A DNA stretch of 13,526 nucleotides. Origin: a virus. Its lineage: Duplodnaviria; Heunggongvirae; Uroviricota; Caudoviricetes. How positions within the stretch are numbered: the first letter of the stretch is position 1; each line of letters opens with the position of its first letter. The notes under the pieces are model-generated. The model had not been told where the DNA came from, did no database searches, and saw only the letters and a program-made list of their open reading frames with translations. Location: IMG/VR virus record IMGVR_UViG_2713896773_000027; one strand, given 5' to 3'. Below are positions 1-13,526 of this stretch, in pieces. Both the position numbers and the translations under genes were made by a program.

Positions 1-19
1 CTATTTGATAAATATTAAA

Positions 20-1315
20 TTAATTTTTCATTGCTTCGTTATGGGGCATGGTTGGGGCAAACTCGCTTAACTGTGTATTTAACAAAGCTACCTGTGCATT
101 ATTGTTTTCAGACATCCATTTTCCGTATACCTGAAATACCATTTGCGCATCTGCATGGCCCATCTGGTTTGCTATAAATGCCGGGTTAGCACCAGCTGTC
201 AGCGACCAGCAGGCATAAGTATGTCTCGACTGATATGATTTTCGATGGCGGAGTCCGGCACGTTTTATCGCTGCGTCCCACATCTGCCTTATTGAGTCAA
301 CGGTAAAATGGTCACCATAATTTTTTACTCTCGCTGACACTTCAGGTTGAAAAACAAAGGTGCATTTTTGTTTTTCTGTTCTGCCATACTCTCTGAGGTG
401 AACATCAATGATATGCTCTTTGCTCAGTCTCGTTAATGTCATCTGACTCCGGAGAGCGTCGATTGCTGGCTTAATAAGATGAATGACCCGATTGGTTCCC
501 GCCTGTGTTTTTGGTACCGTGAAACGGTCTTTTGCTAAATTTCTCCTGATCATCATTGTTCCATTTTTCAGATCTATGTCCTCCCATCCAAGTGCACACA
601 GCTCACCAGGGCGAACTCCAGTATAAACAGAAACACACCATAAATTTTTTGCTTGCTGATTTCTGCACGCATCGATAAGACGGATAAATTCTTCCCGCGA
701 AAGAGGATCCGGAATGGTTCTTGATTCCTTTAATGGCGAGATCCCCTTAAACGGATTATCTGCCAGGTAACCGTTATCAACACCAAACTGGAACACGGCG
801 TTAAGATTTGTCATGTAATTATTTACAGTTACAGCCGATCTCCCTGGTTGTGTAACAATATAGTTACTTTTGGGGATCTGGTATCCAGTCAGTAACTCTT
901 TACGAACCTCCAGTAATTTTTCTTTATTAATCGATGAGGCAAGATTTTTTTCACCGATTATGCTCAGGATATTTTTGATGACGGCACGGTATGTGTTGAG
1001 TGATGTTTTGGCGACTTCAGTTTCTTTCAGTGCCAGAAATTTTTCAGCCAGTTCTTTTATGGTTAAATCTTGTCGGGCCTCACCAAATTTTTCCAGATTG
1101 CGTGAGGAGGGAAACTGTTTTGCATAGTCGAAAACACCAGTTTTTATTGCGTAACAAACAGAGGAGCGTAGTTCACCTGCAACGCGCCTGTTTTTTGCTG
1201 TGTCAGGAACCCCCAGATTTTCCCTGACTCTTACGTCTTTATAAACAAACCAGATACGTAATTTCCCTCCATGGTTTTCCACGCCTGTCGGATATTTCAT
1301 TTCAACTTCTCTCAT
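20..1315 (-). CDS. int: phage tyrosine integrase (site-specific recombinase)
   Basis: 431-aa ORF. Tyrosine-recombinase signature segments are visible: GVRPGELCALGWEDIDL (box I Arg), SRHTYACWSL (box II), QMGHADAQMVFQVYGKW (catalytic Tyr region). It sits at the edge of the element next to an excisionase-like gene on the same strand, as in lambdoid int-xis modules. An alternative start at Met6 (MKYPTG) is possible. Confidence 0.9.
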   Translation of the reverse strand: MREVEMKYPTGVENHGGKLRIWFVYKDVRVRENLGVPDTAKNRRVAGELRSSVCYAIKTGVFDYAKQFPSSRNLEKFGEARQDLTIKELAEKFLALKETEVAKTSLNTYRAVIKNILSIIGEKNLASSINKEKLLEVRKELLTGYQIPKSNYIVTQPGRSAVTVNNYMTNLNAVFQFGVDNGYLADNPFKGISPLKESRTIPDPLSREEFIRLIDACRNQQAKNLWCVSVYTGVRPGELCALGWEDIDLKNGTMMIRRNLAKDRFTVPKTQAGTNRVIHLIKPAIDALRSQMTLTRLSKEHIIDVHLREYGRTEKQKCTFVFQPEVSARVKNYGDHFTVDSIRQMWDAAIKRAGLRHRKSYQSRHTYACWSLTAGANPAFIANQMGHADAQMVFQVYGKWMSENNNAQVALLNTQLSEFAPTMPHNEAMKN

Positions 1316-1334
1316 TAGTTAGTGTGGCTTTTAG

Positions 1335-1586
1335 TCAAGTAAGATGACGTCTTGGTCTCGCTGATGCCTGGCGCTCAATCCAGCGATCAATTTCTTCCAG
1401 GTTGTAAAAGCATGGACTGTTATCCCATGGCATACCGTCATGAGCGACATGCTTATATTCCCTTCCTTCCATAAACGATTTTTCCCGGGCCTTTTTTAAC
1501 GTACCTTTTTTTATTCCTTTCAGCGCAATTAACTGCTCTTCGGATACCCATTTGCCGGGAGAGACAATCATGATTACTTCGCTCAT
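1335..1586 (-). CDS. xis: excisionase-like small DNA-binding protein (Xis/AlpA-like)
   Basis: 83-aa ORF immediately upstream of int on the same strand. It is small and basic with a helix-turn-helix-like segment (LIALKGIKKGTLKKAREK) followed by a Trp-containing wing (EEIDRWIERQ). Position and size fit a recombination directionality factor; no homology search was run. Confidence 0.6.
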   Translation of the reverse strand: MSEVIMIVSPGKWVSEEQLIALKGIKKGTLKKAREKSFMEGREYKHVAHDGMPWDNSPCFYNLEEIDRWIERQASARPRRHLT

Positions 1587-1658
1587 CGATTTCTTTATCT
1601 CTTACATCAGACGAGCGCCGGTTGCAGAATACCAGTCACAACCGGCGACAGTTGAACA

Positions 1659-3290
1659 TTAAGAATCAGCCTGACTCGGGATCAGTTTTTGCCAGATAAC
1701 TGAAACGTATTTTGCCTGGTAACGGGCGTCATCAAGTGCATTATGGCGCTCACCTTCGAATGGAATAGCCGTTCTGGCATCGAAGTCTATGGCTTTCCCC
1801 AGCTCAACGATTGTGCGTACATCGCGATCGTTGTAGTAACGCCACGGGCAGGGGATCCCCTGCCGTTCGTATGAACGGCGCAAAATCGTGTTGTCGAAGT
1901 TGGCTCCATTTCCCCAAACCTGAACAAAAAATTCACCGGAGTTTTCGTCGATAAATTCTCGCAATTGTAACAGTGCATCATCTAACGGGATTTCATCGGT
2001 CATAATGGCAGATTGCGCTTCGCGTGATTGCTTAAGCCACCATTTAATGGTGTCCCGATCAATGACTCCGCCAGCAGTTTCCAGATCGATAGTCTTACTA
2101 AATTCCGGTCCCATATCTCCGGTTTGCGGATCGAAAAATATTGCACCTATTGAGATGATCGGGGCATCAGGATTTTTTCCCATGGTTTCAAGGTCGATCA
2201 TTAGATGGTCACACGTCCTGCTGGTGGATGTGATTTCGTGATGACCGTTCACCTTAATTGGGTGATCTGCCGTCTCGCCAGTTTCATTATCGCTATTGTG
2301 ATGCTGATTGCCGCCAGTGTTCTCCTTGTGTGGATGTTCAGCGCCTTCCATTTCCTCCGGATCATCTTCCTGAACTTCAACCTGATACTCTTCATCGAAT
2401 GTTTCTTGGTATGTTGCGTCGCCCATCACCGCGCCACAATCAGGGCAGTTGCCGCCGCCGGTCTGACCGCAGGCGGTGCAGACTTTTTCCACTTCCTGTT
2501 GCGCTACTGGTTCAGGCTGTTTCGTTTCTGGCTCGTTTTGTAACGCATTTGGACTGTTTTGTTCCGCTTTTTGGTAGTTCCGTTCCGATTCATGCTGGTT
2601 CTGGTTCACAGAATCGCGGGTCTGGAGCCCCTTAACCCATTTCGGATCATTCGGGTCACTAATCCCTTCAACAAATTCACCACGTGATGCAGCAAGCAAC
2701 TTATCGGCGTCAGGCTGGCTGATATTGGCTGCCTGCATAATTTTGTTTACTTCGTCAGCGGTAACTTTTATCGGCTCTGGTTGTTCTGAATCTTCAGCGG
2801 TATCTACATTTTGCGGTAAGCCCGTGTATGTGCCATTTTTTCGGGCAAAATATTCTTCTTTTGTGATTTCAGTGGCGCCAGCAGCCAGTGCCTTATCCAG
2901 ACCAGAGAGTTTGTTTGCGCGACCGTATTTTTCTCCGTCCTTATCTGCGAAGAGGAAATAGAACGGCCCCTCACGCTCTACAGATGGTTCAGCTTCCGGC
3001 GCGGTTTCATTTTTTGGGATATCAGATACCTCAGTTTCCACTGCATCAGTTTGTGTTTCTGATGACTGGAGAACATCAACAGTGCCCAGGTCTGTTTCTT
3101 CATTCTCAAACACGCCCTTTGTCGTCAGGTATTCGCAGATATATTTGTTCAGTGCTACGGGATCTTTGTGAATGTCGATCGGACGCTCACGGACAAGGCC
3201 AAAAATAGTTTGGCGGTCGTAGCGAAGGGCATCAGGCTGTTTGCGCATTGATGCCGAGATACGCTGAGGTAGCCTGAGTTTAACGGACAC
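1659..3290 (-). CDS. prophage exonuclease with C-terminal DnaQ-like (DEDDh) 3'-5' exonuclease domain and central Cys4 zinc-ribbon; probably 5'-truncated
   Basis: 543-aa ORF. The C-terminal third carries the three exonuclease motifs: Exo I MIDLETMG, Exo II VWGNGANFDNTIL, Exo III HNALDDARYQ. A Cys cluster CTACGQTGGGNCPDCG lies mid-protein. It occupies the position of recombination exonucleases in lambdoid early-left operons. The apparent GTG start at 3288-3290 lies inside the inferred IS3-family inverted repeat (3265-3290), and the first ATG (3246-3248) has no Shine-Dalgarno, so the native 5' end is probably lost. Confidence 0.7.
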   Translation of the reverse strand: MSVKLRLPQRISASMRKQPDALRYDRQTIFGLVRERPIDIHKDPVALNKYICEYLTTKGVFENEETDLGTVDVLQSSETQTDAVETEVSDIPKNETAPEAEPSVEREGPFYFLFADKDGEKYGRANKLSGLDKALAAGATEITKEEYFARKNGTYTGLPQNVDTAEDSEQPEPIKVTADEVNKIMQAANISQPDADKLLAASRGEFVEGISDPNDPKWVKGLQTRDSVNQNQHESERNYQKAEQNSPNALQNEPETKQPEPVAQQEVEKVCTACGQTGGGNCPDCGAVMGDATYQETFDEEYQVEVQEDDPEEMEGAEHPHKENTGGNQHHNSDNETGETADHPIKVNGHHEITSTSRTCDHLMIDLETMGKNPDAPIISIGAIFFDPQTGDMGPEFSKTIDLETAGGVIDRDTIKWWLKQSREAQSAIMTDEIPLDDALLQLREFIDENSGEFFVQVWGNGANFDNTILRRSYERQGIPCPWRYYNDRDVRTIVELGKAIDFDARTAIPFEGERHNALDDARYQAKYVSVIWQKLIPSQADS

Positions 3291-3591
3291 TCCTTCCTGA
3301 AATAGAATGGCATCAGAAGGAGCTAATAATGAGCAGAAAAACCCAACGTTACTCTAAAGAGTTCAAAGCCGAAGCTGTCAGAACGGTTCTTGAAAATCAA
3401 CTTTCGATCAGTGAAGGCGCTTCCCGATTATCTCTTCCTGAAGGCACTTTAGGACAATGGGTTACCGCCGCCAGAAAAGGGCTCGGTACTCCTGGTTCCC
3501 GCACGGTGGCTGAACTGGAATCTGAAATTCTGCAACTGCGTAAGGCGTTAAATGAAGCTCGCCTTGAGCGAGATATATTAAAAAAAGCAAC
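3265..3591 (+). mobile_element. IS3-family insertion sequence remnant (IS600-like), left end plus truncated orfA; interrupted by IS30
   Basis: The terminal sequence TGAGGTAGCCTGAGTTTAACGGACAC (3265-3290) starts with TG and ends with GGACAC like IS3-family left inverted repeats. It is followed after about 40 bp by an orfA-type ORF. The element stops abruptly at 3591, where the IS30 inverted repeat begins. No orfB or right inverted repeat is present in the window. Confidence 0.6.
3329..3591 (+). pseudogene. IS3-family transposase OrfA (IS600-like), truncated after codon 88 by IS30
   Basis: Translation MSRKTQRYSKEFKAEAVRTVLENQLSISEGASRLSLPEGTLGQWV...LERDILKKAT has the helix-turn-helix plus leucine-zipper layout of IS3-family OrfA. 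A Shine-Dalgarno AGGAG sits at 3318-3322. The last nucleotide of the final in-frame codon (ACT, Thr) is the first base of the IS30 terminal repeat. The 134-aa ORF on the track is an artefact running into IS30 and the N-run. Confidence 0.75.
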
Positions 3592-4595
3592 TGTAGATTC
3601 AATTGGTCAACGCAACAGTTATGTGAAAACATGGGGTTGCGGAGGTTTTTTGNNNNNNNNNNNNNNNNNNNNNNNNNNNNNNNNNNNNNNNNNNNNNNNN
3701 NNNNNNNNNNNNNNNNNNNNNNNNNNNNNNTAAGCGGGCTGTAGCTCACCTGACACTGTCTGAGCGCGAGGAGATACGAGCTGGTTTGTCAGCCAAAATG
3801 AGCATTCGTGCGATAGCTACTGCGCTGAATCGCAGTCCTTCGACGATCTCACGTGAAGTTCAGCGTAATCGGGGCAGACGCTATTACAAAGCTGTTGATG
3901 CTAATAACCGAGCCAACAGAATGGCGAAAAGGCCAAAACCGTGCTTACTGGATCAAAATTTACCATTGCGAAAGCTTGTTCTGGAAAAGCTGGAGATGAA
4001 ATGGTCTCCAGAGCAAATATCAGGATGGTTAAGGCGAACAAAACCACGTCAAAAAACGCTGCGAATATCACCTGAGACAATTTATAAAACGCTGTACTTT
4101 CGTAGCCGTGAAGCGCTACACCACCTGAATATACAGCATCTGCGACGGTCGCATAGCCTTCGCCATGGCAGGCGTCATACCCGCAAAGGCGAAAGAGGTA
4201 CGATTAACATAGTGAACGGAACACCAATTCACGAACGTTCCCGAAATATCGATAACAGACGCTCTCTGGGGCATTGGGAGGGCGATTTAGTCTCAGGTAC
4301 AAAAAACTCTCATATAGCCACACTTGTAGACCGAAAATCACGTTATACGATCATCCTTAGACTCAGGGGCAAAGATTCTGTCTCAGTAAATCAGGCTCTT
4401 ACCGACAAATTCCTGAGTTTACCGTCAGAACTCAGAAAATCACTGACATGGGACAGAGGAATGGAACTGGCCAGACATCTAGNNNNNNNNNNNNNNNNNN
4501 NNNNNNNNNNNNNNNNNNNNNNNNNNNNNNNNNNNAGTTCAAAACACCGAAAGAGATAATTGAAAGGGGTGTTGCATTGACAGATTGAATCTACA
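3592..4595 (+). mobile_element. IS30 insertion sequence; interior contains two N-runs (3653-3730, 4483-4535) that are assembly gaps of non-native length
   Basis: The ends are imperfect inverted repeats: left TGTAGATTCAATTGGTCAACGCAACAG (3592 onward), and the reverse complement of the right end (to 4595) is TGTAGATTCAATCTGTCAATGCAACAC. The internal ORF translates to the IS30 transposase sequence as I recall it. The flanks (..GCAAC | GTGTTG..) show no 2-bp target duplication. Confidence 0.85.
3732..4588 (+). CDS. insI: IS30 transposase (DDE family), visible portion; true start codon lies inside the first N-run and a mid-gene stretch inside the second
   Basis: The frame opening at 3732 reads KRAVAHLTLSEREEIRAGLSAKMSIRAIATALNRSPSTISREVQRNRG... 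and after the second gap ...KFKTPKEIIERGVALTD, ending at a TGA (4586-4588) inside the right inverted repeat. This matches the IS30 transposase. The interruptions are Ns, not mutations, so this is not necessarily a pseudogene. Confidence 0.85.
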
Positions 4596-4622
4596 GTGTT
4601 GTATTGTATAAATAGAGTACAT

Positions 4623-4664
4623 AAAGCCATCAATATTTCTATCGATGGCTTTATCTTTTTATTG
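4623..4664. terminator. hairpin (13-bp stem with one mismatch, 4-nt loop) followed by a T-run; likely terminator downstream of the tail-fibre assembly gene, possibly bidirectional
   Basis: AAAGCCATCAATA-TTTC-TATCGATGGCTTT (4623-4652) followed by ATCTTTTTATT on the + strand. On the - strand the same stem lies just after the tfa stop codon (4659-4661). It is 28 bp from the IS30 right end. Confidence 0.5.
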
Positions 4665-5237
4665 CGGGGCGACTGGCCACTCAACATCCGCTGCTACTGC
4701 TGTATCAACACGATTCAACAATACCCGATATGTCTTCCATGCAGTCAGTAACGATGCCTCTTCCTCCGTCGCAATATCCAAATCTACGGCATCCTGAAGT
4801 GGCGCAATATGCTCACTGGCCATCTGCATCAGGCTGTTTTTTGTTTCTTCCGCCTTCCGGATCCGGAACAGTTTTTCTGCTTCTGCATCTTTCACCCAGG
4901 CTGTGCCGTTCCACTTCTGAAACTCCCCTTCCGGGGATAACCAGGTGACATTTTCCGGTAATGGGCCAAGTTCAGAAATAAATAACGCGTCGCCGGAAGC
5001 CACGTCATAGACGGTTTTTCCCCGATGGTCTTCAACGAGATTCCACGATGCCTCATCACTGTTGAAAACGGCCACGAAGCCAGCCGGAATATCTGGCGGG
5101 GCAATATCGGTACTGTTTGCAGGCAGACCTGTATGAGGTGGAATGTATGCATCACCTTCACCAATAAACTCATTGGTTCCAGCCAGTAGATTATAAATTT
5201 TTATGGTCCGTGATTGTTCACTCATTCTGAATGTCAT
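4659..5237 (-). CDS. tfa: phage tail fibre assembly protein (Tfa / Mu U / P2 G family chaperone)
   Basis: 192-aa ORF. Its ATG overlaps the upstream tail-fibre stop by one base (TAATG), a classic Stf-Tfa coupling. The N-terminal region ([38 protein letters not shown]...) and size are typical of the Tfa family. Confidence 0.9.
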
Positions 5238-6853
5238 TATGCAAGCCTCACAATATAGTTAAATGCGATGTTTTTTACGGTGTTTTCTTCGTTACCCGTA
5301 GCGTTAACGGTGATGGTGTGTCCGTGGGGACCAATAATGACAGAATGGGCATGAGCACCAATGCCGATAGTGTGGTTATGGGCACCGATATATACATTGT
5401 GAGCATGCCCTCCTGCGCTCGACGTGGTACCAGTACCTAACGCAGCGTTATAACCGGCTGATACACCATTCCCCGCGCCAGTGTGACCAACAGGTATATT
5501 GTGTGAATGAGCTCCTGCGCTATTTGTGGTTTTTGTGCCGTAATCAAATGAACTGGTCGTTTTAGTACCGTAATCAAACGACGATGTGGTTTTCGTCCCC
5601 AAATCCGTACTGGATGCACTGGCGCTGTGGGTGTGCGATTTAATGCCGTCCTGTTCCTGAGACAATACTGCACGACCACTGGCGGGCTTGCCCTTAATCG
5701 TCCAGCTACGCATATCAGGGATCACACCTGACGGATAAGCGGCTGCAAGTTTCGGGTATGCAGATTTGTCAAAAGTCTGCCCCTGCATCAGGGCATAACC
5801 AGACGGAACGGTATCTGATGGCCAAGGGATCGGTGCGCCAACCGGATAAAGTTCATGCGGCGAAATATACAGCGAATAAACAGAACCGTCCGTTAATCCT
5901 TCCGGCTTATTAGCAGAATATGCTGGTGAAGTATGAATCGTTACGCTGGCATTACTGGTATAATCCCATTGAATATTTACACCAGTCGCATAATTTCCAA
6001 TAGCAACGTAAATATCGTAAGTGTCACCAGAAGTATTGACCCACGCAAAATTTGTAAACCCTGCCGATGTGCGCTGCCATAAAGCTCCAGTAATCCCCTT
6101 CGGATTACCGTTACCTGCACGCAAAACAAGTTCAGATATACCTGCCTGTTGAGGTGACCCCACGTTAAATCCCGCGCCACCAATCAACGTAATTGAAACA
6201 ACAGAACTTGCCTGCGGCATGGTTACAGTTGCCAGCTTGAACCATCCTGCACCACCACTAAAAGACATTGTTGTGGAGTTGATTGTGCCTATAGACCGTG
6301 GGTTAAGTTCAATATCTTTAGAACCATCAAACGAGACGCCATTGATAGCACATGCTGTCTGCAACTTGGTCGCTGTAGCCGCATTACCAGAGGTGTCCTG
6401 ATTCCCTTTGGCATTGACGCCGGGAATTGAATCTTTTGACGTATAGACCTGCGCCCATTCAGACCAGTTGGCAGAATCAGTATCCCGCCGCGAACGGATA
6501 TGTACGGGCGCATGGGCACCGCTCGTGCCACTCCAGCCAATGAATAACTCACCTTCGCCAGCAGCGGTGGCACCTTTAAGGTGAAGCACATTGCCATAGG
6601 GGGAAGGGTAGCCATTGTTGTATGCCTCATACAGCTGAATCCCGGATGTTCCCTGTGCATTCGCCTCCAGGGCCGTTACGCGACCGCGAGATACCAGAGT
6701 ATTGATATTAATGTCAGCCGAACCATCGAACCTGACGCCATTAATGTTTCTGGCTGTTTTTAATTTCGTCGCGGTGTCGGCGTTCCCCGCCAGCGCCCCG
6801 GTGATCCCACCGTTGAAAGTCTGGCGTGCACTCCATGTGTTAGCCGTGCTCAA
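5237..6853 (-). CDS. phage tail fibre protein, C-terminal variable (receptor-binding) cassette without its own start; reading frame stays open upstream through the crossover site to about 6931
   Basis: Contains two copies of the phage tail-fibre repeat ([26 protein letters not shown] and [28 protein letters not shown]), tandem [10 protein letters not shown] repeats, and C-terminal HxH repeats (HSHN, HAHN, HNHT, HAHS, HGHT). The listed start is a TTG chosen by the ORF finder. Translating upstream in frame gives ...[15 protein letters not shown]... with no ATG and no Shine-Dalgarno, consistent with a silent Sv'-type segment of an invertible host-range region. Confidence 0.85.
5528..5599. repeat. 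approximately 30-bp imperfect tandem repeat (about 2.4 copies) inside the tail-fibre coding region
   Basis: GGTTTTTGTGCCGTAATCAAATGAACTGGTC / GTTTTAGTACCGTAATCAAACGACGATGTG / GTTTTCGTCCCC on the + strand, encoding the [10 protein letters not shown] repeats on the - strand. Confidence 0.5.
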
Positions 6854-6883
6854 CAGGGGGATCTTTTCACCGCTTGTGCCAAG

Positions 6884-6909
6884 TTCTCTTAAACCAAGGT
6901 TTAGGATTG
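6884..6909. other. hix/gix/cix/pix-like 26-bp crossover site for the adjacent serine invertase
   Basis: TTCTCTTAAACC-AA-GGTTTAGGATTG is an imperfect palindrome with a central AA. By my recollection of hixL (TTCTTGAAAACCAAGGTTTTTGATAA) it matches at 19 of 26 positions. It overlaps the last codons of the invertase gene and lies in-frame within the upstream extension of the tail-fibre cassette. No second copy was found in the window. Confidence 0.6.
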
Positions 6910-7461
6910 AAATGATGACGCCGGAAACTTCTTATAAAGCGTGGAAACAGCCACATCATAGATGATTGCAACCTGCTTACGGGGGATGCCCTTCTCGAGC
7001 AATCGCCGCATTTGCTGCCATGTTTCTTCTTGGTATTTAGGCCGACGCCCACCTATACGACCTTCTGCGCGAGCTGCATCAAGTCCAGCGCGTGTACGTT
7101 CAACGATAAGCTCACGTTCCATTTCTGCCAGCGCCCCCATTACGTGAAAGAAAAAGCGCCCCATTGGTGTACTGGTGTCGATGGAGTCAGTGAGACTCCG
7201 GAAGTTAATGCCTCTGTCACGCAGCTCTTCCACCAGCACAACTAAGTGACGCATGCTGCGCCCAAGACGATCTAACTTCCATACGACTAGGGTGTCACCT
7301 CTGGAAAGCATACGGAGAACCTTTTTTAACCCAGGGCGTTCAGCCTTTTTGCCGCTCGCCTTGTCCTCAAAAATTAGCTTACATCCTGCGCTTTCAAGGG
7401 CATTTCGTTGTAAAGCAGTGTTTTGTTCATTTGTTGATACGCGTACATAGCCAATTAGCAT
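6901..7461 (-). CDS. pin: serine-recombinase DNA invertase (Hin/Gin/Cin/Pin family)
   Basis: 186-aa ORF starting [27 protein letters not shown]... with the catalytic Ser in the YVRVST motif, a resolvase/invertase catalytic domain ([16 protein letters not shown]...) and a C-terminal helix-turn-helix ([22 protein letters not shown]). It is very close to the E. coli Pin sequence as I recall it. The symbol denotes family membership, not a confirmed ortholog. Confidence 0.9.
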
Positions 7462-7588
7462 ATTTTCTGCTCACCATAGTTATTCATAGCAAGCTGCGGA
7501 TTTTAATTAACAGAAACCAGTGTGTGTGGAAATCACAAAGTGCATACCGTGCCCCAATGATGTTTTATTGAAAAGCGGGGTTACTTTA

Positions 7589-7870
7589 ATGTTTGATTTA
7601 ACCATATTTTTTATAACCATCCTTGGAGGCGTGCATTCGTTTCTGAATGGGGTTCGTGAAAAACGTTACGAAGCGTCATGCAGGCAATTGATGGCCGAGT
7701 GTATTGCTGCCGTACTTGCAGGCTTTATAGGCATGTATTTCGCGGAATATAAGGGTATGGATGAAAGTCTTCAGAATTGCGTGACTATTATTTGCAGCAT
7801 CAATAACAGGCTCATTCTTGAAAAGTTACAAAGGATTATCGATTCGTACCTCAGTAGCAATGCCTCTTAA
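7589..7870 (+). CDS. small membrane protein with two predicted transmembrane segments; holin-like (hypothesis)
   Basis: About 93 aa from the ATG at 7589; the track's GTG at 7520 has no Shine-Dalgarno. Hydrophobic stretches LTIFFITILGGVHSFL and CIAAVLAGFIGMYFA. Paralogous to the next ORF (GG..TFL..VR-D/E..; AGxxAxxLG motif). Function is inferred from size and topology only. Confidence 0.55.
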   Translation: MFDLTIFFITILGGVHSFLNGVREKRYEASCRQLMAECIAAVLAGFIGMYFAEYKGMDESLQNCVTIICSINNRLILEKLQRIIDSYLSSNAS

Positions 7871-7937
7871 GCAACAAATGACCGGTTGAGAAGTTACTTT
7901 GCATACCATTACCTCCTGACAACGTAGGAGGGAACTT

Positions 7938-8267
7938 GTGCTTGACACACAGGAATTAGCTCCAGTTGCTATTGCGCTCCTGCTTTCAGTAATTGGTGGG
8001 ATAGGCACGTTCCTGATGGATGTCCGAGACGGTCGCCAGTCTGGCAATTTGTTGGGATTGGTTACGGAGATCTTTGTTGCAGTGACAGCTGGCGCGGTGG
8101 CGTACCTATTGGGGCAACACGAGGGCTGGGAGTTATCAATTACGTACTTAATGGTAACGATAGCCAGCAATAACGGTCATGAGGTGATTTCAGGGATGAA
8201 ACGAGTGAATATCGATAGCATTCTGAATGTTCTTACAAGTTTGGTGAAAAAGGGAGGCGGGAAATGA
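7938..8267 (+). CDS. small membrane protein with two to three predicted transmembrane segments; holin-like paralog (hypothesis)
   Basis: 109 aa. GTG start preceded by a strong Shine-Dalgarno AGGAGG (7925-7930). Hydrophobic stretches VAIALLLSVIGGIGTFLM and IFVAVTAGAVAYLLG. Its stop overlaps the next gene's ATG (ATGA). Confidence 0.7.
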   Translation: MLDTQELAPVAIALLLSVIGGIGTFLMDVRDGRQSGNLLGLVTEIFVAVTAGAVAYLLGQHEGWELSITYLMVTIASNNGHEVISGMKRVNIDSILNVLTSLVKKGGGK

Positions 8268-8707
8268 TTGGCTGGGGTGTATGCGTTCTTGCGTTAGCCT
8301 TAGCCGATCGCTATTTGCTAAAACGCAAGGACATCACGCATTTAGAACTTGGTGATGTGGAAATTAAACCGGGTTTCATCCGGGTGCCGTTCAAATACCG
8401 GTCTAAATTCCCGTTTTTGCGCGGCGCAACAGTCAGATATTGGATCCGCGATGTTCAGAAGCCGACGACAGTGATTGAAGGCGAACAACGTTGTTTGACG
8501 TCGGCTGAACAGGGCGAAAACAGTGAATGGTTGTACATACCCACTGAATATATGGGTAAAGGAGAGCGACTGTGGCATTTCAACGTCATGGTTACGCATG
8601 GCGACTCGTTCATTAACCCGTTGTATCGGATTTTCCCTGTTACTCAGCAAATCCGCAGAAGTTACGTAATAAATCTCGCACAGGATGTGTCAGATGACGA
8701 AAAATAA
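8264..8707 (+). CDS. hypothetical protein with N-terminal signal-anchor-like hydrophobic segment
   Basis: 147 aa. ATG preceded by GGGAGG, overlapping the upstream stop. N-terminus MIGWGVCVLALALADRY is hydrophobic. No recognisable catalytic motif by eye. Confidence 0.65.
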   Translation: MIGWGVCVLALALADRYLLKRKDITHLELGDVEIKPGFIRVPFKYRSKFPFLRGATVRYWIRDVQKPTTVIEGEQRCLTSAEQGENSEWLYIPTEYMGKGERLWHFNVMVTHGDSFINPLYRIFPVTQQIRRSYVINLAQDVSDDEK

Positions 8708-9296
8708 GTATGCAACGGTCGATTTTGACCAGGTTAATGAAAAGGGGCTGAAATCCCTTATCGCGGCGATCAATAAAACCGGGGTTACGGTAATTGAGGT
8801 TGACTCCAGCAACCGCGCAACAACGAAAGATGGCGTTAAAGTTAAAACCGCAAAGCTGGTTCTTAACGACGGACAAATCCTTGCCATACAGGTAAACGAT
8901 ACTGGCGATATATCGTCTGTGAAACTGAATGGAAAAGCTATTCCTAACGCTCAGTCGCCGGATATCAAGACGCTTGGTACCGTCATGGGACAGGCGGCCC
9001 GCAAAAACTCCGCAAAATTCCAGAAATCACTGATCGCCAAAGCGAAGCGTGTAGCCAATCCGGTAGACAAGAAACCGGCAGTTAAATCCAACTTTCAGCG
9101 CCTGCAAGAAGCAAAACAGCGGAATGCTCAGGTGGTTGCCGCTTATAAGTCCGCGCAGAATTCGGTGTCTTTCAATCAACAGCAGATCACTGATTTGCGG
9201 GCGAAGCTGGATAAGGAGACGGGCCGACTCAATAACGAAAAGGCACGGAATGGCGAACTCAAACGTCGTCTTAAGCAACTGAAAGCAGGAAATTAA
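8694..9296 (+). CDS. hypothetical protein; N-terminal domain shared with the next ORF plus C-terminal basic coiled-coil
   Basis: About 200 aa from the ATG at 8694 (Shine-Dalgarno AGGA at 8682-8685); the track start at 8685 is less likely. The start overlaps the upstream gene's end. Shares LNDGQILAIQ ... KNSAKFQK with the next ORF. C-terminus is rich in K/R/Q/E heptad-like sequence. Confidence 0.7.
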   Translation: MTKNKYATVDFDQVNEKGLKSLIAAINKTGVTVIEVDSSNRATTKDGVKVKTAKLVLNDGQILAIQVNDTGDISSVKLNGKAIPNAQSPDIKTLGTVMGQAARKNSAKFQKSLIAKAKRVANPVDKKPAVKSNFQRLQEAKQRNAQVVAAYKSAQNSVSFNQQQITDLRAKLDKETGRLNNEKARNGELKRRLKQLKAGN

Positions 9297-9297
9297 C

Positions 9298-10329
9298 ATG
9301 GAACAGTTCAATATCAATAAAGGGGTGACGATCAAGCCTGGGCTTGACGTGCTTCCCCCGCCAGTGACTGATGATGAATATCGCGCATTAATGGCCGGTG
9401 AGGACCGCTATCTGATGACGGAATCCAACACCCTGGAGGAAATCGAGGCTACGTTCTTCTATGACACGCCGATCCACTGGTGTGCTACGGATTTACTGGA
9501 GGCGATTAGTTCTACTCGTTTGCAGTTACACCGGACCATGCAGGCATTTGTCCGGGCATTGAACCAGAAGCTGAATGGCACCGGAATCTCTGCGGGGAGT
9601 GATAAAACGGGGGATGTGGCCCAGAGCGGCGCGCGCGCGATCGGCGGTGCTGAAATTGGCCGGGCACGGAACGTTAACGGGCTGCCGGTCCTGCCAGCCA
9701 TTATTCCGCTCAGTGATGGTCAGACTATCAGCATTCTGTTTCATAGCCCGACAGCGGAAAACCGGATCACCAATAGCGATACGCTGGTTGCTTTCCAGTT
9801 CTTACTGAATAAAAAAGACGTTACTCACACCGTTGCTCCGATGAGTGGACGTGATATGACGCTGGCGCAGGTCACCATGAAACTTGCCAACCTTGCAGAG
9901 AAAAACTCGGCAAAATTCCAGCGTGCGCAGAAGAAGAAAAAAGCCCTGGTTGATGAAATAACCCAACTACAGGCTGACAGTGACCAGAAAGAGGATGCCA
10001 TGAGCGACCTCGCGGATCAGGTGGCAGCGGTAGAAGGGCAGAAGGTAGATCTGGAGCAGAAAATTAACGCTGTTGCATCGGAAGCGGATTCTCTTTATGA
10101 AGAGAATGAGCGTTTGCAGACGGAGATTGATCAGCTCAATCGCACTGGTGGGCGCGAAACCATTGCTCCTGCGGGGATGACTGGTGGACACTCTCGCGCG
10201 ATGACGGATCGCCTTGCAAGTATCAAAAATCGTATGCATATGAACGGGGAAGTGACGCTCAGTAATGGTGCATCAATGAAGCAATTCATTGAGGACGGTG
10301 AAGGGTATATCCAGTTAACTGGGATGTGA
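9298..10329 (+). CDS. hypothetical protein, paralogous domain (DGQ...KNSAKFQ) plus long acidic coiled-coil
   Basis: 343 aa. ATG one base after the upstream stop, Shine-Dalgarno AGGA at 9285-9288. Motifs LSDGQTISIL and EKNSAKFQRAQKKKK. Coiled-coil segment LVDEITQLQADSDQKEDAMSDLADQVAAVEGQKVDLEQKINAVASEADSLYEENERLQTEIDQL. Confidence 0.8.
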   Translation: MEQFNINKGVTIKPGLDVLPPPVTDDEYRALMAGEDRYLMTESNTLEEIEATFFYDTPIHWCATDLLEAISSTRLQLHRTMQAFVRALNQKLNGTGISAGSDKTGDVAQSGARAIGGAEIGRARNVNGLPVLPAIIPLSDGQTISILFHSPTAENRITNSDTLVAFQFLLNKKDVTHTVAPMSGRDMTLAQVTMKLANLAEKNSAKFQRAQKKKKALVDEITQLQADSDQKEDAMSDLADQVAAVEGQKVDLEQKINAVASEADSLYEENERLQTEIDQLNRTGGRETIAPAGMTGGHSRAMTDRLASIKNRMHMNGEVTLSNGASMKQFIEDGEGYIQLTGM

Positions 10330-11714
10330 AGACGCTGGATAAACAGGTTGATGTAACTCCCGATGAAGATGCTGTTATGCAGAAAATCAGTGGTGGCGTC
10401 TCCATCGCCGGGATTAACGACATCATTTCCTGTGACGATTTCTACCGTTTCCAGCAGCGCGGCATGATCAAAATCACTGACTCATACGGCGTTCAGACTA
10501 CAGAGTCAGGCTATAGCATTGATTTTGTTGGTACCTATACGGACCCACTGAAGCATGCGGTTTACCCGGATCGCCGTGACGGCGCGCTGAAGTCGTCAAT
10601 TGCAAAATGGGTGCTTGGTATGATGTCGGAAGGGAATAACCGCCAGATCCGTTCGGCAGAAACATTCCTGGTTGAACTGTTTGGCTCCAATTATGGCGAT
10701 GTAATCGCGTCATACGGAGATACGCTATCCCCTGAAGCAATTCAGGAGAAAATAGCGGATGCGATCGCCAGAATGCCGGAAAAAACAAGCCAGGGGGCTA
10801 CTCGTAACGGGGATTCTGAACTTGAAGTCACCAATGCCATTTTCGGTACCAATGAGTTCCGGGCGTCAGATTATGAGATCACCACAGCACAGTTTGGCAC
10901 CATTGGCATTTACAGCAATAAAGCCGAGATCAAGCAGGCAATGGACGCAGCAAGCGCGCGCATCGCAGCAGAACGGGAAGCCAATCTGAATCATGCAGTC
11001 GCCGCACTGACTCAATCGTGGGTAACAGCAATCAGGGAGGCCGCCACCACAGGGAAAATCACACCTGCAATTGCGGATGTCGTAAACGACGGCTCTAAAT
11101 TTATGGATGCCTATCAAATGGATGCGGTGCAGTTGCCATCAGCCTATGGCCAACTCAGCTATCGCATGACCTACAACCTGGTATCAATGTTTACTGACCT
11201 TGCCATCCTTGGGCTGGTGGACCTTAACGAGGTTACGCCGGAATTACTCAGCATGCGCAAGAATCATGTTGAGATATTGCAGAGAATTAACACGGTTCTT
11301 GCCGGGCGCACCGATGAAGAGAAACAGGCCGACGCTGATCGGATAAACCTGGCCCTAGGCAACATCACGGAGGAAGAAATTGCCGCCAGAAACGAGAAAC
11401 AAGAAGAGTTATCATCAATACAGGGTGATGCCACCAGCATAGCTCAGTCTCTTGGGCTGAATTATCGCGTATCCACCGCCGACCTGAAGATGATGTACGC
11501 ACCAAAATTCGCCGCTGGCGAGGTATTTGGGCTTCAGGAAGCCTCCGGCATGAAAGGGGTTCTTTTCCGTGCGAAAGACGCAATCAAGGCGAAATTCGGC
11601 GCTCGCTGGTTGCCAGCGAAGGCGAAGAACAGCGACTTCCCAGGTAACTGGTGGATTATCGAGACAAAACACAACGTGGCGGACGTTCTGGCCGTCATCC
11701 AACAATACGCATAA
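10326..11714 (+). CDS. hypothetical protein (462 aa), translationally coupled to the upstream gene
   Basis: GTG start overlapping the upstream TGA (GTGA). Long uninterrupted ORF. No Walker, nuclease or other catalytic motif recognised by eye. Confidence 0.8.
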   Translation: MKTLDKQVDVTPDEDAVMQKISGGVSIAGINDIISCDDFYRFQQRGMIKITDSYGVQTTESGYSIDFVGTYTDPLKHAVYPDRRDGALKSSIAKWVLGMMSEGNNRQIRSAETFLVELFGSNYGDVIASYGDTLSPEAIQEKIADAIARMPEKTSQGATRNGDSELEVTNAIFGTNEFRASDYEITTAQFGTIGIYSNKAEIKQAMDAASARIAAEREANLNHAVAALTQSWVTAIREAATTGKITPAIADVVNDGSKFMDAYQMDAVQLPSAYGQLSYRMTYNLVSMFTDLAILGLVDLNEVTPELLSMRKNHVEILQRINTVLAGRTDEEKQADADRINLALGNITEEEIAARNEKQEELSSIQGDATSIAQSLGLNYRVSTADLKMMYAPKFAAGEVFGLQEASGMKGVLFRAKDAIKAKFGARWLPAKAKNSDFPGNWWIIETKHNVADVLAVIQQYA

Positions 11715-11720
11715 CAGGAG

Positions 11721-11738
11721 CGCCCGGTTCGCCGGGCG
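11721..11738 (+). promoter_or_regulatory. intercistronic GC-rich stem-loop with TTCG tetraloop between a Shine-Dalgarno sequence and the next start codon
   Basis: CGCCCGG-TTCG-CCGGGCG. AGGAG (11716-11720) lies immediately 5' of the stem and the ATG at 11748 lies 9 nt 3' of it. There is no U-tract, so it is unlikely to be a simple terminator. Confidence 0.5.
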
Positions 11739-11747
11739 TCGCATAAT

Positions 11748-12188
11748 ATGGCCACATTATCTGATACAATAAAACCGAATAAAACATATCTTGAGGCGGT
11801 GCTGCGTACGGCGTTGTTAGGAAAGACAGAAGACGAATACGTTGATTTCTTCCTGTCAGGGCTACGCGGGCGATTACTGAAAAATCCCCGCCTGTACCGC
11901 AGCTATGGTCCATACTGGCCGGAAATTAAAAAATTATTACTGGAGCGCGGTTATGGTAATTTCGGTCGTCTCGTTGACCGTGACGTTCGCAAAATTTACC
12001 GTTATGACCGTCCGGCGCTGACGCTCATAGCCGCGACGCTCTACAGCCAGGAGCGTTTTGATAATGGTCAGATATACTCAGCCTGGCATTTACTGCCAGT
12101 GCCTGAAGAGGTTGACGACCAGGACTATGAGTTTGAGTCTTACGATTTGGAAGTTGAAGCCTTGGCACAGGCTGGAGAGAAAACTTGA
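11748..12188 (+). CDS. hypothetical protein (146 aa)
   Basis: ATG start 9 nt after the stem-loop. Acidic C-terminus (EEVDDQDYEFESYDLEVEALAQAGEKT). No recognisable domain by eye. Confidence 0.7.
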   Translation: MATLSDTIKPNKTYLEAVLRTALLGKTEDEYVDFFLSGLRGRLLKNPRLYRSYGPYWPEIKKLLLERGYGNFGRLVDRDVRKIYRYDRPALTLIAATLYSQERFDNGQIYSAWHLLPVPEEVDDQDYEFESYDLEVEALAQAGEKT

Positions 12189-12433
12189 AGAAGCGATACT
12201 ACACAGTAAAGCATGGGACGCTACGAGCATTGCAAGAGTTTGCTGATAAGCATAACGTTGAGGTGCGCAGGGAAGGGGGAAGTAAAGCTCTGCGCATGTA
12301 CCGTCCTGACGGAAAATGGCGGACGGTCGTCGATTTCAAAACTAACAGTGTTCCCCAGGGCGTCCGCGACCGGGCATTCGAAGAATGGGAGCAGATCATC
12401 ATAGATAACGCATTGCTTCTGAACGCTGATTAA
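12185..12433 (+). CDS. small basic hypothetical protein (82 aa), translationally coupled
   Basis: TTG start overlapping the upstream TGA (TTGA), with Shine-Dalgarno GGAGAG at 12171-12176. Last gene of the co-directional string before a hairpin. Confidence 0.6.
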   Translation: MKKRYYTVKHGTLRALQEFADKHNVEVRREGGSKALRMYRPDGKWRTVVDFKTNSVPQGVRDRAFEEWEQIIIDNALLLNAD

Positions 12434-12443
12434 TAATCATTTA

Positions 12444-12464
12444 AAGCCCATATGATATGGGCTT
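12444..12464 (+). terminator. hairpin (10-bp stem AAGCCCATAT / ATATGGGCTT) separating the coupled operon from the AT-rich downstream gene; weak U-tract
   Basis: A perfect inverted repeat is seen directly. It is followed by AAACAACAGG on the + strand, so intrinsic terminator function is uncertain. It coincides with a sharp shift in base composition. Confidence 0.4.
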
Positions 12465-12515
12465 AAACAACAGGATCGATATACAGTGTTAGTTAAATAT
12501 ATAGGCGAGAGTTAT

Positions 12516-13526
12516 ATGGAAAAACCTTGGCCGGGCATGCACATTAGAACATCTTGTCTGGAGGATGGTTTCTTTAGAGCAACGCAACCAAAGTATCTTA
12601 ATGATCCGTCGAGTGAGTCGCGACTTCTTCCATTTTTTAATAAATTTTCACCAGCCGATTACGCATGGGCTAGAAATGAATTTAAGAAAATGCAACGAGA
12701 TCCATCTTATGTCCCATCTATACAAGAGTTAGAGTATTATTTAAAACCTTGCGGGAAACGATACGGAGAGGATTTTCCACACTTGTTAATCAATGAAGGT
12801 TTTACCTCAATGGATTCATATGATGAATCTAAACTCCAAGAAATAGTAACGTACCTTAACGATTATTTAGTAGAAGCCGTAAGCTGTCATCTTGGTGTAT
12901 TCTCTCTATCAAAAAGTGATTGCAATCTACACATGTGGACTCATTATGCATCGATAGGAAAGGGGTTTGCTGTAGTTTTCGATGAAACACACGATTTTTT
13001 CAAAATATATAGGCCGTGTGATGTTAGTTATAATCCAGAAGATAGAGCATCTGTAACCTATTATAAAGGCGCTGTGCGATTTAATGGCTATCCTGCGCCA
13101 TCGAGGAATATAGATATAAAGAATAAAGATAATACATTGCATGGGATCTTAAATCGAGATTCAGTTCGCGAGCTTTTTATTAATAGGCTCCTTTATACAA
13201 AAGGTGAAGAGTGGCTTCCTGAAAATGAAAGTAGAATTATTTTTCCTTTAGCTGATTGCGAGAGAAAGATAGGAAGTATTGTCTCTCCATCGATTGATGA
13301 TTGCCTATTAAATGAGTATCCTGATGTTTTTCATGACTATCATGAAATTAACTTAAAGAAAATTCCTTTTTCTGCATTCAAGCAAATTACCTTAGGGTAT
13401 AACATGACTGAAAAAGATAAAAATATAATTTTAGATAAAGTTAGTTCGAATAAAGAATTGTCTCACGTCAACGTATTACATTCAAAACTTGATATATACG
13501 GAAAGGTTGTGGTTAAGCCCATGTAA
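12516..13526 (+). CDS. AT-rich orphan protein of unknown function (about 336 aa); candidate horizontally acquired accessory or defence gene
   Basis: ATG at 12516 with GAGAG 5 nt upstream; the track's GTG at 12486 is less likely. The ORF ends exactly at the window end (TAA). Visibly lower GC than all neighbours. Contains CHLGVFSLSKSDCNLHMWTHYASIGKGFAVVFDE. No known catalytic motif recognised by eye. Confidence 0.8.
   Translation: MEKPWPGMHIRTSCLEDGFFRATQPKYLNDPSSESRLLPFFNKFSPADYAWARNEFKKMQRDPSYVPSIQELEYYLKPCGKRYGEDFPHLLINEGFTSMDSYDESKLQEIVTYLNDYLVEAVSCHLGVFSLSKSDCNLHMWTHYASIGKGFAVVFDETHDFFKIYRPCDVSYNPEDRASVTYYKGAVRFNGYPAPSRNIDIKNKDNTLHGILNRDSVRELFINRLLYTKGEEWLPENESRIIFPLADCERKIGSIVSPSIDDCLLNEYPDVFHDYHEINLKKIPFSAFKQITLGYNMTEKDKNIILDKVSSNKELSHVNVLHSKLDIYGKVVVKPM

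What the first reader, a model, noticed from the sequence alone, without database searches (positions are those of the whole stretch)
12440..13526. Compositionally foreign, AT-rich orphan gene appended to the prophage remnant
The last roughly 1.1 kb is much more AT-rich than the rest of the window, by eye and not computed. It starts right after a perfect 10-bp hairpin and encodes one long ORF with codon usage unlike its neighbours. This resembles where lysogenic-conversion or anti-phage genes sit at prophage ends, for example mcrA next to pinE in e14. The segment NLHMWTHYASIGKGF resembles, from memory only, the conserved MW-x-YA signature of a domain-of-unknown-function family (possibly DUF2971). 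I recognise no nuclease, NTPase, TIR or Sir2 motif, so if it is a defence gene the mechanism would be uncharacterised. The window ends at its stop codon, so partner genes may lie just beyond.
Basis: partly seen in the sequence, partly recalled or inferred. Interest (0 to 1): 0.72.

Follow-up and report, generated by a model that had tools for sequence, protein, structure and literature searches.

The report
P1 phage defence-slot ADP-ribosyltransferase-like gene
The AT-rich gene at the end of the window is a single-gene cargo in the slot where P1-type phage-plasmids carry their anti-phage genes. It encodes a DUF2971 protein with a predicted ADP-ribosyltransferase fold, so it is most likely an untested relative of a known abortive-infection defence gene rather than an orphan.

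Summary
Window 12434-13526 has 35% GC against 49% for the adjoining P1-derived DNA. Third-codon-position GC of the ORF is 0.28 against 0.45-0.57 for its neighbours. It is one ORF (GTG 12486 to stop 13526, 346 aa), preceded by a 9-bp hairpin.

The gene is not an orphan. It passes Pfam's threshold for DUF2971, matches the PADLOC defence candidate PDC-S31, and has about 8,700 relatives at the 50%-cluster level.

The flanking DNA is a P1-like phage-plasmid fragment. Similarity to P1 and P7 ends exactly at the lxc stop codon (12433). In P1 and P7 the lxc-mat slot holds the type III restriction-modification system. In phage SJ46 it holds the validated defence gene CapRel. In other P1-likes it holds SIR2, YaaC or HTH+EAL cargo, and all cargos are AT-rich. 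About 60 of about 700 P1-like-carrying E. coli genomes have the DUF2971 cargo.

Verdict: a new member of a known kind, with moderate interest. Its target and trigger are unknown.

The parts
11748..12188 (+). ulx, a P1 backbone gene upstream of lxc
   Evidence: 97-98% identical to P1/P7 ulx/olxA.
12185..12433 (+). lxc, the C1 co-repressor modulator and left anchor of the variable slot
   Evidence: Similarity to P1, P7, SJ46 and RCS47 ends at its stop codon, 12433.
12434..13526 (+). AT-rich cargo module. It continues about 97 bp past the window to the mat stop codon; the whole slot is 1190 bp in intact elements.
   Evidence: GC 0.35. Identical in the 94-kb P1-like plasmid p18AR0366B and in the NCTC9040 chromosome.
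12444..12464 (.). Hairpin: 9-bp perfect stem, 3-nt loop
   Evidence: dG -12.1 kcal/mol, with no T-run. Every other cargo type except type III R-M has its own unrelated hairpin directly after the lxc stop.
12486..13526 (+). DUF2971 gene, 346 aa, GTG start
   Evidence: ORF list and translation. N-terminus conserved in 44 homologs. Pfam, PADLOC and PHROG hits.
12576..12584 (+). R31-A-T33, candidate ART motif I at the end of predicted strand 29-31
   Evidence: R31 is >=90% conserved in the 75-sequence broad alignment and T33 is invariant in the close subfamily. The assignment is inferred.
12933..13238 (+). Region matched by the Pfam DUF2971 model (aa 150-251), starting at MWTHYA
12945..12947 (+). 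Y154, an invariant tyrosine and candidate ART motif II
   Evidence: Invariant in both alignments. The literature describes a strictly conserved Tyr in DUF2971 (PMC12522546).
13221..13229 (+). E246-N-E248, the Glu-x-Glu motif III at the start of predicted strand 248-254
   Evidence: E248 invariant and E246 >=90% conserved.
9298..11714 (+). Context: the darA 5' part joined to the darB 3' part, the deletion that marks this P1 copy as a remnant
   Evidence: DarA_N Pfam hit. Annotated as truncated internal head protein and helicase in NCTC9040 and in H15 plasmid A.

Best explanation
The segment is a self-contained, horizontally acquired cargo module: hairpin, one gene, then a terminator-like hairpin just beyond the window. 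It sits in the lxc-mat accessory slot of a P1-like phage-plasmid, where different P1 relatives carry different anti-phage genes.

The gene encodes a cytoplasmic 346-aa DUF2971 protein. Its core is predicted to adopt the ADP-ribosyltransferase fold, closest to the nucleic-acid-modifying enzymes Tpt1 and DarT, and it keeps a conserved Arg31 / Tyr154 / Glu246-x-Glu248 set.

The most likely function is a single-gene abortive-infection defence expressed in the lysogen. The enzyme would stay inactive until a superinfecting phage triggers it. It would then use NAD+ to ADP-ribosylate a nucleic acid or a component of the gene-expression machinery, stopping phage gene expression. This would protect the P1 element and its host population.

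Shown here: the location, composition, family membership, fold similarity, conserved residues and solitary gene organisation.
Inferred: enzymatic activity, target, trigger, and read-through expression from the lxc promoters.
For: Slot identity:
- P1 and P7 similarity stops at the lxc stop codon.
- P1 and P7 carry type III mod/res there.
- SJ46 carries a RelA/SpoT gene there. CapRel-SJ46 is the RelA/SpoT-type (toxSAS) defence gene of that phage, experimentally validated in PMC9712102.
- RCS47 has the empty 39-bp site.
- Sampled E. coli P1-likes carry SIR2, YaaC+169 aa, RelA/SpoT, HTH+EAL or type III R-M.
- Counts in 5,426 genomes: 146 HTH+EAL, 133 SIR2, 109 YaaC, 83 RelA/SpoT, about 60 DUF2971, about 58 type III R-M. 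About 699 genomes carry ulx-lxc.
- All cargos have 32-38% GC.
- The SIR2 and RelA/SpoT cargos hit PADLOC models.

Family:
- Pfam DUF2971 above the gathering score in all 45 aligned members.
- PADLOC PDC-S31 at E 2.8e-16.

Fold:
- AF2 pLDDT 91, pTM 0.86.
- Y154, E248 and R250 are invariant, and R31 and E246 are >=90% conserved, across a 75-sequence alignment with 22% mean identity.

Literature:
- DUF2971 was assigned to the H-Y-E ART clade, near DarT and AbiGi (PMC12522546).
- Aristaios (316 aa, DUF2971) is a validated single-gene Abi system that blocks phage transcription and protein production (PMC11381338, PMC13064643, PMC12967558).

Context of homologs at 40-54% identity:
- The gpV-gpS slot of P2-like prophages in Salmonella and Enterobacter.
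- A prophage end at smpB in Serratia.
- Next to P4-like delta/psu with UvrD and RT genes in Raoultella.
- An AlpA/RT/Mrr island and an islet with an AAA_15/21 ATPase in Klebsiella.
- A Vibrio conjugative plasmid beside a PIN_12 gene.
- No neighbour is shared across these contexts, and the slot holds no second conserved ORF.

Other: no transmembrane segment; pI 6.0.
Against: - No experiment exists for this protein or for any close homolog.
- I could not superpose residues, so the motif assignment is topological inference.
- A toxin-type enzyme with no antitoxin needs an auto-inhibition mechanism, and I have not identified one.
- No promoter-like or terminator-like site was found between lxc and the ORF, so expression in lysogens is assumed.
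- Two of the nine other homolog neighbourhoods looked at (Shewanella, Oceanobacter) show no mobile-element or defence marks.
- The PADLOC 'PDC' label marks a candidate, not a validated system.
Confidence: 0.6

Rival explanations
1. It has the ART fold but different chemistry. On activation the protein would deplete NAD+ (NADase action, as SIR2/TIR defence effectors do) or act as a Tpt1-like RNA 2'-phosphotransferase or RNA-modifying enzyme. It would still be a defence gene, with a different effector mechanism.
Against: The Tpt1 Arg-His-Arg-Arg tetrad (from my own knowledge of that family) has no obvious counterpart among the invariant residues D40, Y154, Y182, K239, E248, R250 and G304. A Glu-x-Glu motif is the hallmark of transferases rather than plain NADases (PMC12522546).
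Confidence: 0.15
2. It serves the phage rather than defence. It would be an ART that remodels host machinery during P1 lytic growth, as T4 Alt/ModA/ModB do, or that counters a host defence.
For: Phages are known to encode ARTs for host takeover (my own knowledge of T4 Alt/Mod). The gene lies just downstream of the anti-restriction operon darB-ulx.
Against: The slot's other cargos include lysogen-type defence genes: type III R-M, CapRel and SIR2. Only about 9% of P1-likes carry the gene, so it is dispensable for the P1 life cycle. Homologs also occur on a conjugative plasmid and in chromosomal islets without phage genes.
Confidence: 0.12
3. It is a selfish or inert passenger. It would be an addiction-type toxin that stabilises the plasmid prophage, or an AT-rich, H-NS-silenced gene with no current function.
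For: P1 already relies on an addiction module, phd-doc, present in the same plasmids. The gene is very AT-rich. The Klebsiella homolog is flanked by H-NS-like genes. The copy in this window survives in a decayed P1 remnant.
Against: There is no antitoxin partner and no second conserved ORF. The reading frame and all family-invariant residues are intact, and the copy is 100% identical to those in intact 94-kb elements. Homologs keep 40-54% identity over their full length across Enterobacterales, Vibrio, Shewanella and Oceanobacter, which indicates purifying selection.
Confidence: 0.08
4. It is a secreted ART effector or toxin acting on eukaryotic or competitor cells, as proposed for a minority of DUF2971 proteins.
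For: PMC12522546 predicts that about 18% of DUF2971 proteins are effectors. SopF and CteC are among the fold hits.
Against: The protein has no hydrophobic N-terminus or transmembrane segment (max Kyte-Doolittle 0.99). No secretion-system or immunity gene is adjacent in any of the ten contexts. The slot is a phage defence slot.
Confidence: 0.03

Closest known systems
Aristaios (Lactococcus plasmid pUCCL641, 316 aa; Grafakou et al. 2024, PMC11381338)
   Different: Different phylum and carrier: a lactococcal plasmid against an enterobacterial phage-plasmid. I could not obtain its sequence, so identity is unknown and probably low. The close subfamily here has only 39 representatives at E<=1e-30, out of 8,694 family hits. 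No phenotype is known for the P1 gene.
PADLOC candidate system PDC-S31
   Same: Four PDC-S31 models match (best E 2.8e-16).
   Different: The matches cover only the core (for example protein 110-173 and 108-314), so this is a divergent member. PDC entries are computational candidates.
DarT of DarTG toxin-antitoxin systems (ssDNA thymidine ADP-ribosyltransferase)
   Different: No DarT Pfam match. No DarG macrodomain antitoxin gene in the slot or next to any homolog. Large helical insertions (aa 56-135 and 214-246) and extra N- and C-terminal elements.
CapRel-SJ46 (fused toxin-antitoxin toxSAS of P1-like phage SJ46)
   Same: Occupies the same lxc-mat slot of a P1-like element. A single polypeptide of similar size (373 aa), AT-rich, with a nucleotide-using toxin domain. 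It is a working precedent for a self-inhibited single-gene Abi at this locus (PMC9712102).
   Different: Unrelated fold and chemistry: RelA/SpoT pyrophosphokinase against ART-like. Opposite orientation in the slot.
EcoP1I / EcoP7I type III restriction-modification (P1 res-mod)
   Same: Same slot, same AT-rich composition (GC 0.36), and the same lysogen-protecting role.
   Different: Two genes over 5.1 kb. It acts by methylation-dependent self/non-self discrimination, not by abortive infection.

Membership tests
Pfam DUF2971 (PF11185) | Score above the curated gathering threshold of the family model | tested here: met
   28.6 bits against a cut-off of 22, E 3.7e-6, full model 1-89 matched at aa 150-251. 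All 45 aligned homologs match.
Pfam DUF2971 (PF11185) | Conserved Tyr and Glu-x-Glu described for the family (PMC12522546) | tested here: met
   Y154, Y182 and E248 invariant and E246 >=90% conserved in the 75-sequence alignment. All are present in the window protein.
Aristaios-type single-gene Abi | DUF2971 protein encoded alone, without a conserved partner | tested here: met
   The 1190-bp slot holds one gene between lxc and mat. It has no conserved second ORF. Neighbours differ in all ten contexts.
Aristaios-type single-gene Abi | Predicted ADP-ribosyltransferase-like fold | tested here: met
Aristaios-type single-gene Abi | Phage resistance with an abortive-infection phenotype | not testable with these tools
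   Needs plaque assays and MOI-dependent growth assays.
Aristaios-type single-gene Abi | Direct sequence similarity to Aristaios itself | not tested
   The sequence was not retrievable. No supplements are held, and only the BioProject number is given.
PADLOC PDC-S31 | Match to the system's HMMs | tested here: met
   Four PDC-S31 models match, at E 2.8e-16 to 1.3e-6, with partial coverage.
DarTG toxin-antitoxin | DarT (DUF4433) sequence family membership | tested here: not met
   No Pfam family other than DUF2971 is supported at E<=10 for the 45 members; the other listed matches are scattered weak hits in at most 4 members. No PDB sequence hit to DarT with either profile.
DarTG toxin-antitoxin | Adjacent DarG macrodomain antitoxin | tested here: not met
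   No macrodomain gene in the slot or beside any homolog.
ADP-ribosyltransferase superfamily | NAD+-dependent ADP-ribosyl transfer with a catalytic Glu | not testable with these tools
   Only fold similarity and conserved residues are available. Residue-level superposition could not be run.
P1-like lxc-mat variable slot cargo | Located between the lxc stop codon and the mat stop codon of a P1-type backbone | tested here: met
   The break in similarity is exactly at 12433. In intact plasmids mat follows 97 bp after the stop.

The most novel reading that the evidence does not exclude
The P1-borne protein is a self-restrained, antitoxin-free ADP-ribosyltransferase acting on nucleic acid. It would be a DarT/Tpt1-like enzyme whose own helical insertion and terminal elements act as phage sensor and auto-inhibitor, and which on infection modifies RNA or DNA to shut down phage gene expression. 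This would give the roughly 8,700-cluster DUF2971 family its first defined target and trigger, in the tractable E. coli/P1 system.
Probability: 0.2. Interest if true: 0.65.

Novelty: new member of a known kind. Interest (0 to 1): 0.4.

Why it matters
DUF2971 is a large family: 8,694 representative clusters matched here. It has one phenotypically validated defence member, and its trigger, target and chemistry are all unknown.

This copy sits in E. coli on P1, the best-studied phage-plasmid. Its slot is shown here to rotate between at least six cargo types. Two of those types are classical or validated defences, and two (YaaC+169 aa and HTH+EAL) match no known defence model.

That gives a natural isogenic framework for testing single-gene immunity carried by phage-plasmids: same backbone, swapped cargo. 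It also gives a simple anchor-gene rule, lxc to mat, for mining further candidates. The gene itself is not a new kind of system.

Tried and rejected
- Sequence-level link to solved structures: profiles of the close (45-sequence) and broad (75-sequence) alignments found no PDB chain at E<=10.
- Foldseek of the full model against the PDB gave no significant hit. The best was E 0.9, a roughly 54-residue resemblance to tRNA-splicing endonuclease subunits, which I treat as noise.
- The afdb50 library was unavailable.
- NCBIfam gave no hit. PHROG 1762 matches strongly but has no known function.
- The promoter/terminator scan of 11700-13526 found nothing between lxc and the ORF, so the hairpin cannot be called a terminator and the promoter remains unknown.
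- PANGU systems (nucleoid-protein-sensed defence): I considered these because the Klebsiella homolog is flanked by H-NS-like genes. I rejected the idea because PANGU uses YejK-like proteins and lists no ART or DUF2971 effector.
- Hidden antitoxin: embedded and antisense ORFs (for example 12927-13142, minus strand, 71 aa) are not positionally conserved in five homolog loci.
- The Aristaios sequence could not be obtained for a direct comparison.
- The ATG at 12516, used as the start by some RefSeq records, was rejected in favour of the GTG at 12486.

Full report
1. THE OBSERVATION

The last 1.1 kb of the window is compositionally distinct. GC is 0.35 for 12434-13526, against 0.49 for the adjoining P1-derived DNA (4596-12433). 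It is the lowest-GC stretch of its length in the window, about 3.5 sd below the mean.

The ORF's third-position GC is 0.28. Eleven neighbouring genes have 0.45-0.57.

One long ORF fills the segment, from 12486 (GTG) to the stop at 13526, giving 346 aa. Some RefSeq records start it at the ATG at 12516. All 44 aligned homologs begin MLVKY..., which matches VLVKY at the GTG, so the GTG is the real start.

The hairpin is real. It has nine perfect pairs, 12444-12452 with 12456-12464, a TGA loop, and dG -12.1 kcal/mol. The window holds two such stems where shuffles give 0.28. It has no T-tract, and the consensus scan calls neither a terminator nor a promoter between lxc and the ORF.

PF11185 scores 28.6 bits against a cut-off of 22, and the match begins at M150-W-T-H-Y-A.

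2. WHERE IT SITS

The window is a mosaic.
- Positions 1-4595 carry an integrase, an excisionase and an exonuclease gene from another element, plus IS sequences and two masked N runs.
- Positions 4596-13526 are a P1-type phage-plasmid fragment: tail-fibre assembly and tail-fibre genes, the Cin invertase, holins, a darA 5' part joined to a darB 3' part, ulx and lxc.

This stretch is 100% identical to part of the E. coli NCTC9040 chromosome. The last 1.2 kb is also 100% identical to the intact 94-kb P1-like plasmid p18AR0366B.

Megablast against phage genomes shows that similarity to P1, P7, SJ46, RCS47 and others stops at window 12433, the lxc stop codon. In P1 and P7 the next genes are mod and res of the type III restriction system, followed by the convergent gene mat. 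In the DUF2971-bearing elements the order is darB - ulx - lxc - DUF2971 - mat - ref - cre. The whole slot is 1190 bp, and mat's stop lies 97 bp after the ORF stop.

So the gene is not appended to a prophage end. It replaces res-mod in an internal accessory slot.

3. THE SLOT IS A ROTATING DEFENCE LOCUS

RCS47 shows the empty site, 39 bp. Salmonella phage SJ46 carries a 373-aa RelA/SpoT gene there. CapRel-SJ46 is the RelA/SpoT-type (toxSAS) defence gene of that phage, a fused toxin-antitoxin experimentally shown to defend against phages (PMC9712102).

A spread sample of E. coli P1-likes gave SIR2 (three), YaaC plus a 169-aa protein (two), a CapRel allele 74% identical to SJ46's (one), HTH plus EAL (two) and type III R-M (one).

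Counting each cargo by megablast in 5,426 complete E. coli genomes, of which about 699 carry ulx-lxc:

Cargo | Genomes
HTH+EAL | 146
SIR2 | 133
YaaC | 109
RelA/SpoT | 83
DUF2971 | about 60
Type III R-M | about 58

Together these account for about 84% of the elements.

Every cargo has 32-38% GC. Each cargo except type III R-M brings its own strong hairpin directly after the lxc stop, at -16 to -25 kcal/mol. The SIR2 cargo hits PADLOC ThsA/SIR2 and PDC-S25 models, and the RelA/SpoT cargo hits PDC-S33.

Across PLSDB the same DUF2971 protein, at >=95% identity, is on 89 plasmids, nearly all from Escherichia, Salmonella and Shigella.

4. WHAT THE PROTEIN IS

It is not an orphan. The 90% cluster has 839 member sequences. 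Seventy-five further clusters at 36-54% identity come from Enterobacterales, Vibrio, Aeromonas, Shewanella and others. An exhaustive profile search finds 8,694 representatives at E<=1e-3, but only 39 at E<=1e-30. This is therefore a small subfamily of a very large family.

PADLOC's candidate system PDC-S31 matches at E 2.8e-16. PHROG 1762, of unknown function, matches at 1.5e-69. NCBIfam gives nothing.

In a 75-sequence alignment with 22% mean identity, D40, Y154, Y182, K239, E248, R250 and G304 are invariant. R31, Q34, P35, N39, E44, W151 and E246 are >=90% conserved.

The published description of DUF2971 gives an H-Y-E-clade ART with a poorly conserved motif I His, a strictly conserved Tyr, a Glu-x-Glu motif, and large helical inserts between strands 1-2 and 4-5 (PMC12522546). 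Read against that description and the model's secondary structure, the residues map as follows:
- R31-x-T33 at the end of strand 29-31 is motif I.
- Y154, after strand 136-142, is motif II.
- E246-x-E248 at the start of strand 248-254 is motif III.
- The two inserts are at 56-135 and 214-246.

This mapping is inference, because I could not superpose coordinates. The protein has no transmembrane segment and has pI 6.0.

5. GENE ORGANISATION AND CONTEXT ELSEWHERE

The slot holds no second conserved ORF. Homologs are solitary and sit beside different genes each time:
- Between gpV and gpS of P2-like prophages in Salmonella and Enterobacter. From my own knowledge this corresponds to the orf30 moron position of P2. 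That was not checked here, and Rousset et al. (PMC9122126) describe a different P2 hotspot, next to cos.
- At the distal end of a P2/HP1-like prophage by smpB in Serratia.
- Next to P4-like delta/psu genes, with a UvrD-type helicase and a reverse transcriptase nearby, in Raoultella.
- In a Klebsiella island with AlpA, H-NS paralogs, an Mrr-like gene, a reverse transcriptase and MobA.
- In a small Klebsiella islet beside an AAA_15/AAA_21 ATPase.
- On a Vibrio conjugative plasmid beside a PIN_12 gene.
- In two chromosomal contexts without obvious mobile or defence marks, in Shewanella and Oceanobacter.

In all six contexts measured, the P1-like plasmid and five of the homolog loci, the gene has 33-39% GC in loci of 43-55%.

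6. MECHANISM

The best-supported reading is a single-gene abortive-infection defence carried by the P1 element for its lysogen. An ART-fold enzyme would be held inactive until a superinfecting phage triggers it. It would then transfer ADP-ribose from NAD+ to a nucleic acid or to a component of the expression machinery.

The precedent is Aristaios, a 316-aa lactococcal DUF2971 protein. It is a validated single-gene Abi with a predicted ART fold (PMC11381338). It blocks phage transcription and protein production, and its trigger and target are listed as unknown (PMC13064643, PMC12967558).

CapRel in the same P1 slot shows that a self-inhibited single-polypeptide toxin works at this locus. The gene is co-oriented with lxc, lies 18 nt after a hairpin that lacks a T-tract, and has no detectable promoter of its own. 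Low-level read-through from the lysogenically active lxc promoters annotated in P1 is therefore a reasonable guess, but untested.

The rival readings, with the probabilities I give them, are:
- NADase or Tpt1-like RNA chemistry instead of classical ADP-ribosylation: 0.15
- A phage-benefit ART in the manner of T4 Alt/Mod: 0.12
- An addiction toxin or silent passenger: 0.08
- A secreted effector: 0.03

7. COMPARISON AND NOVELTY

Membership of Pfam DUF2971, of PADLOC PDC-S31 and of the P1 lxc-mat cargo set is met by test. Membership of DarTG is not met: there is no DarT model match and no DarG partner. The protein may still work like DarT.

It is a new, untested member of a known kind. I found no paper that mentions this P1 gene or DUF2971 in phage-plasmids.

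The more useful by-product is the anatomy of the slot itself. Two abundant cargos, YaaC+169 aa and HTH+EAL, match no PADLOC model.

I score interest at 0.4. The finding is real and well placed for experiments, but it would not surprise a specialist.

Noticed in passing
L019:7745-9294 (YaaC + 169 aa) and L023/L024:5725-7370 (HTH + EAL); same slot as window 12434 onward: Two of the commonest cargos of the P1 lxc-mat slot match no PADLOC model, although they share the slot with R-M, CapRel, SIR2 and DUF2971. They are YaaC family protein + 169-aa protein (109 E. coli genomes) and HTH protein + EAL-domain protein (146 genomes). They are untested defence or lysogenic-conversion candidates.
   Followed up: partly
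window 12434-12485 and the equivalent first 55 nt after the lxc stop in L016, L017, L019, L021, L024, L025, L026: Each cargo variant carries a different strong hairpin (-16 to -25 kcal/mol; -12 here) immediately after the lxc stop. The empty site of RCS47 has one too. Only the type III R-M variant lacks one. The position is conserved without conserved sequence, which suggests a terminator or insulator role, or a module boundary.
   Followed up: partly
window 9298-11714: The darA 5' part (DarA_N domain) is joined to the darB 3' part. The rest of darA, most of darB and whatever lay between them are deleted. The same junction is annotated in the NCTC9040 chromosome, H15 plasmid A and LT883139, so these remnants share an ancestor, and the remnant has moved between a chromosome and plasmids.
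   Followed up: partly
L027:5687-5780 (E. coli H15 plasmid A), equivalent to window 12434-12471: In this sister remnant an IS1 sits right after the hairpin and the DUF2971 gene is gone. In NCTC9040 an IS5 pseudogene follows the gene about 290 bp downstream in place of mat. IS elements bound and erode the module.
   Followed up: no
window 1-4595: The left third of the window is unrelated to P1. It holds a tyrosine integrase with an Arm-binding domain (20-1315, minus), a DUF1233 excisionase (1335-1586, minus), a 543-aa protein with an Rv2179c-like 3'-5' exoribonuclease domain (1659-3290, minus), and IS transposase fragments. Two masked N runs lie at 3653-3730 and 4483-4535.
   Followed up: partly
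L010:10001-11050 and L028:8001-9047: Homologs at 46-48% identity sit between the baseplate gene V and tail gene S of P2-like prophages in Salmonella and Enterobacter, in the opposite orientation to the tail operon. This is a second, independent phage slot for the same gene family.
   Followed up: partly
L006:9136-11614 (Klebsiella pneumoniae island): The Klebsiella homolog is bracketed by two H-NS-type genes (an 80-aa H-NS N-domain protein upstream and a 134-aa H-NS downstream). This may mean xenogeneic silencing of this very AT-rich gene (GC 0.33).
   Followed up: no
window 12862-13142, minus strand: A 71-aa antisense ORF (12927-13142) and the only sigma-70-like match in the region (12890-12862, minus strand) lie inside the gene. 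The ORF is not positionally conserved in homolog loci, so both are probably chance in AT-rich DNA.
   Followed up: yes
L001:15228-15324 (just beyond the window end): The 97 bp between the ORF stop and the mat stop contain a second hairpin (CCTTCCTTAACTTAGGAAGG) between the two convergent genes. The 3' end and length of mat also differ between cargo types (753 bp with DUF2971 or R-M, about 642 bp with the others). The right recombination boundary therefore lies inside or beyond mat.
   Followed up: partly
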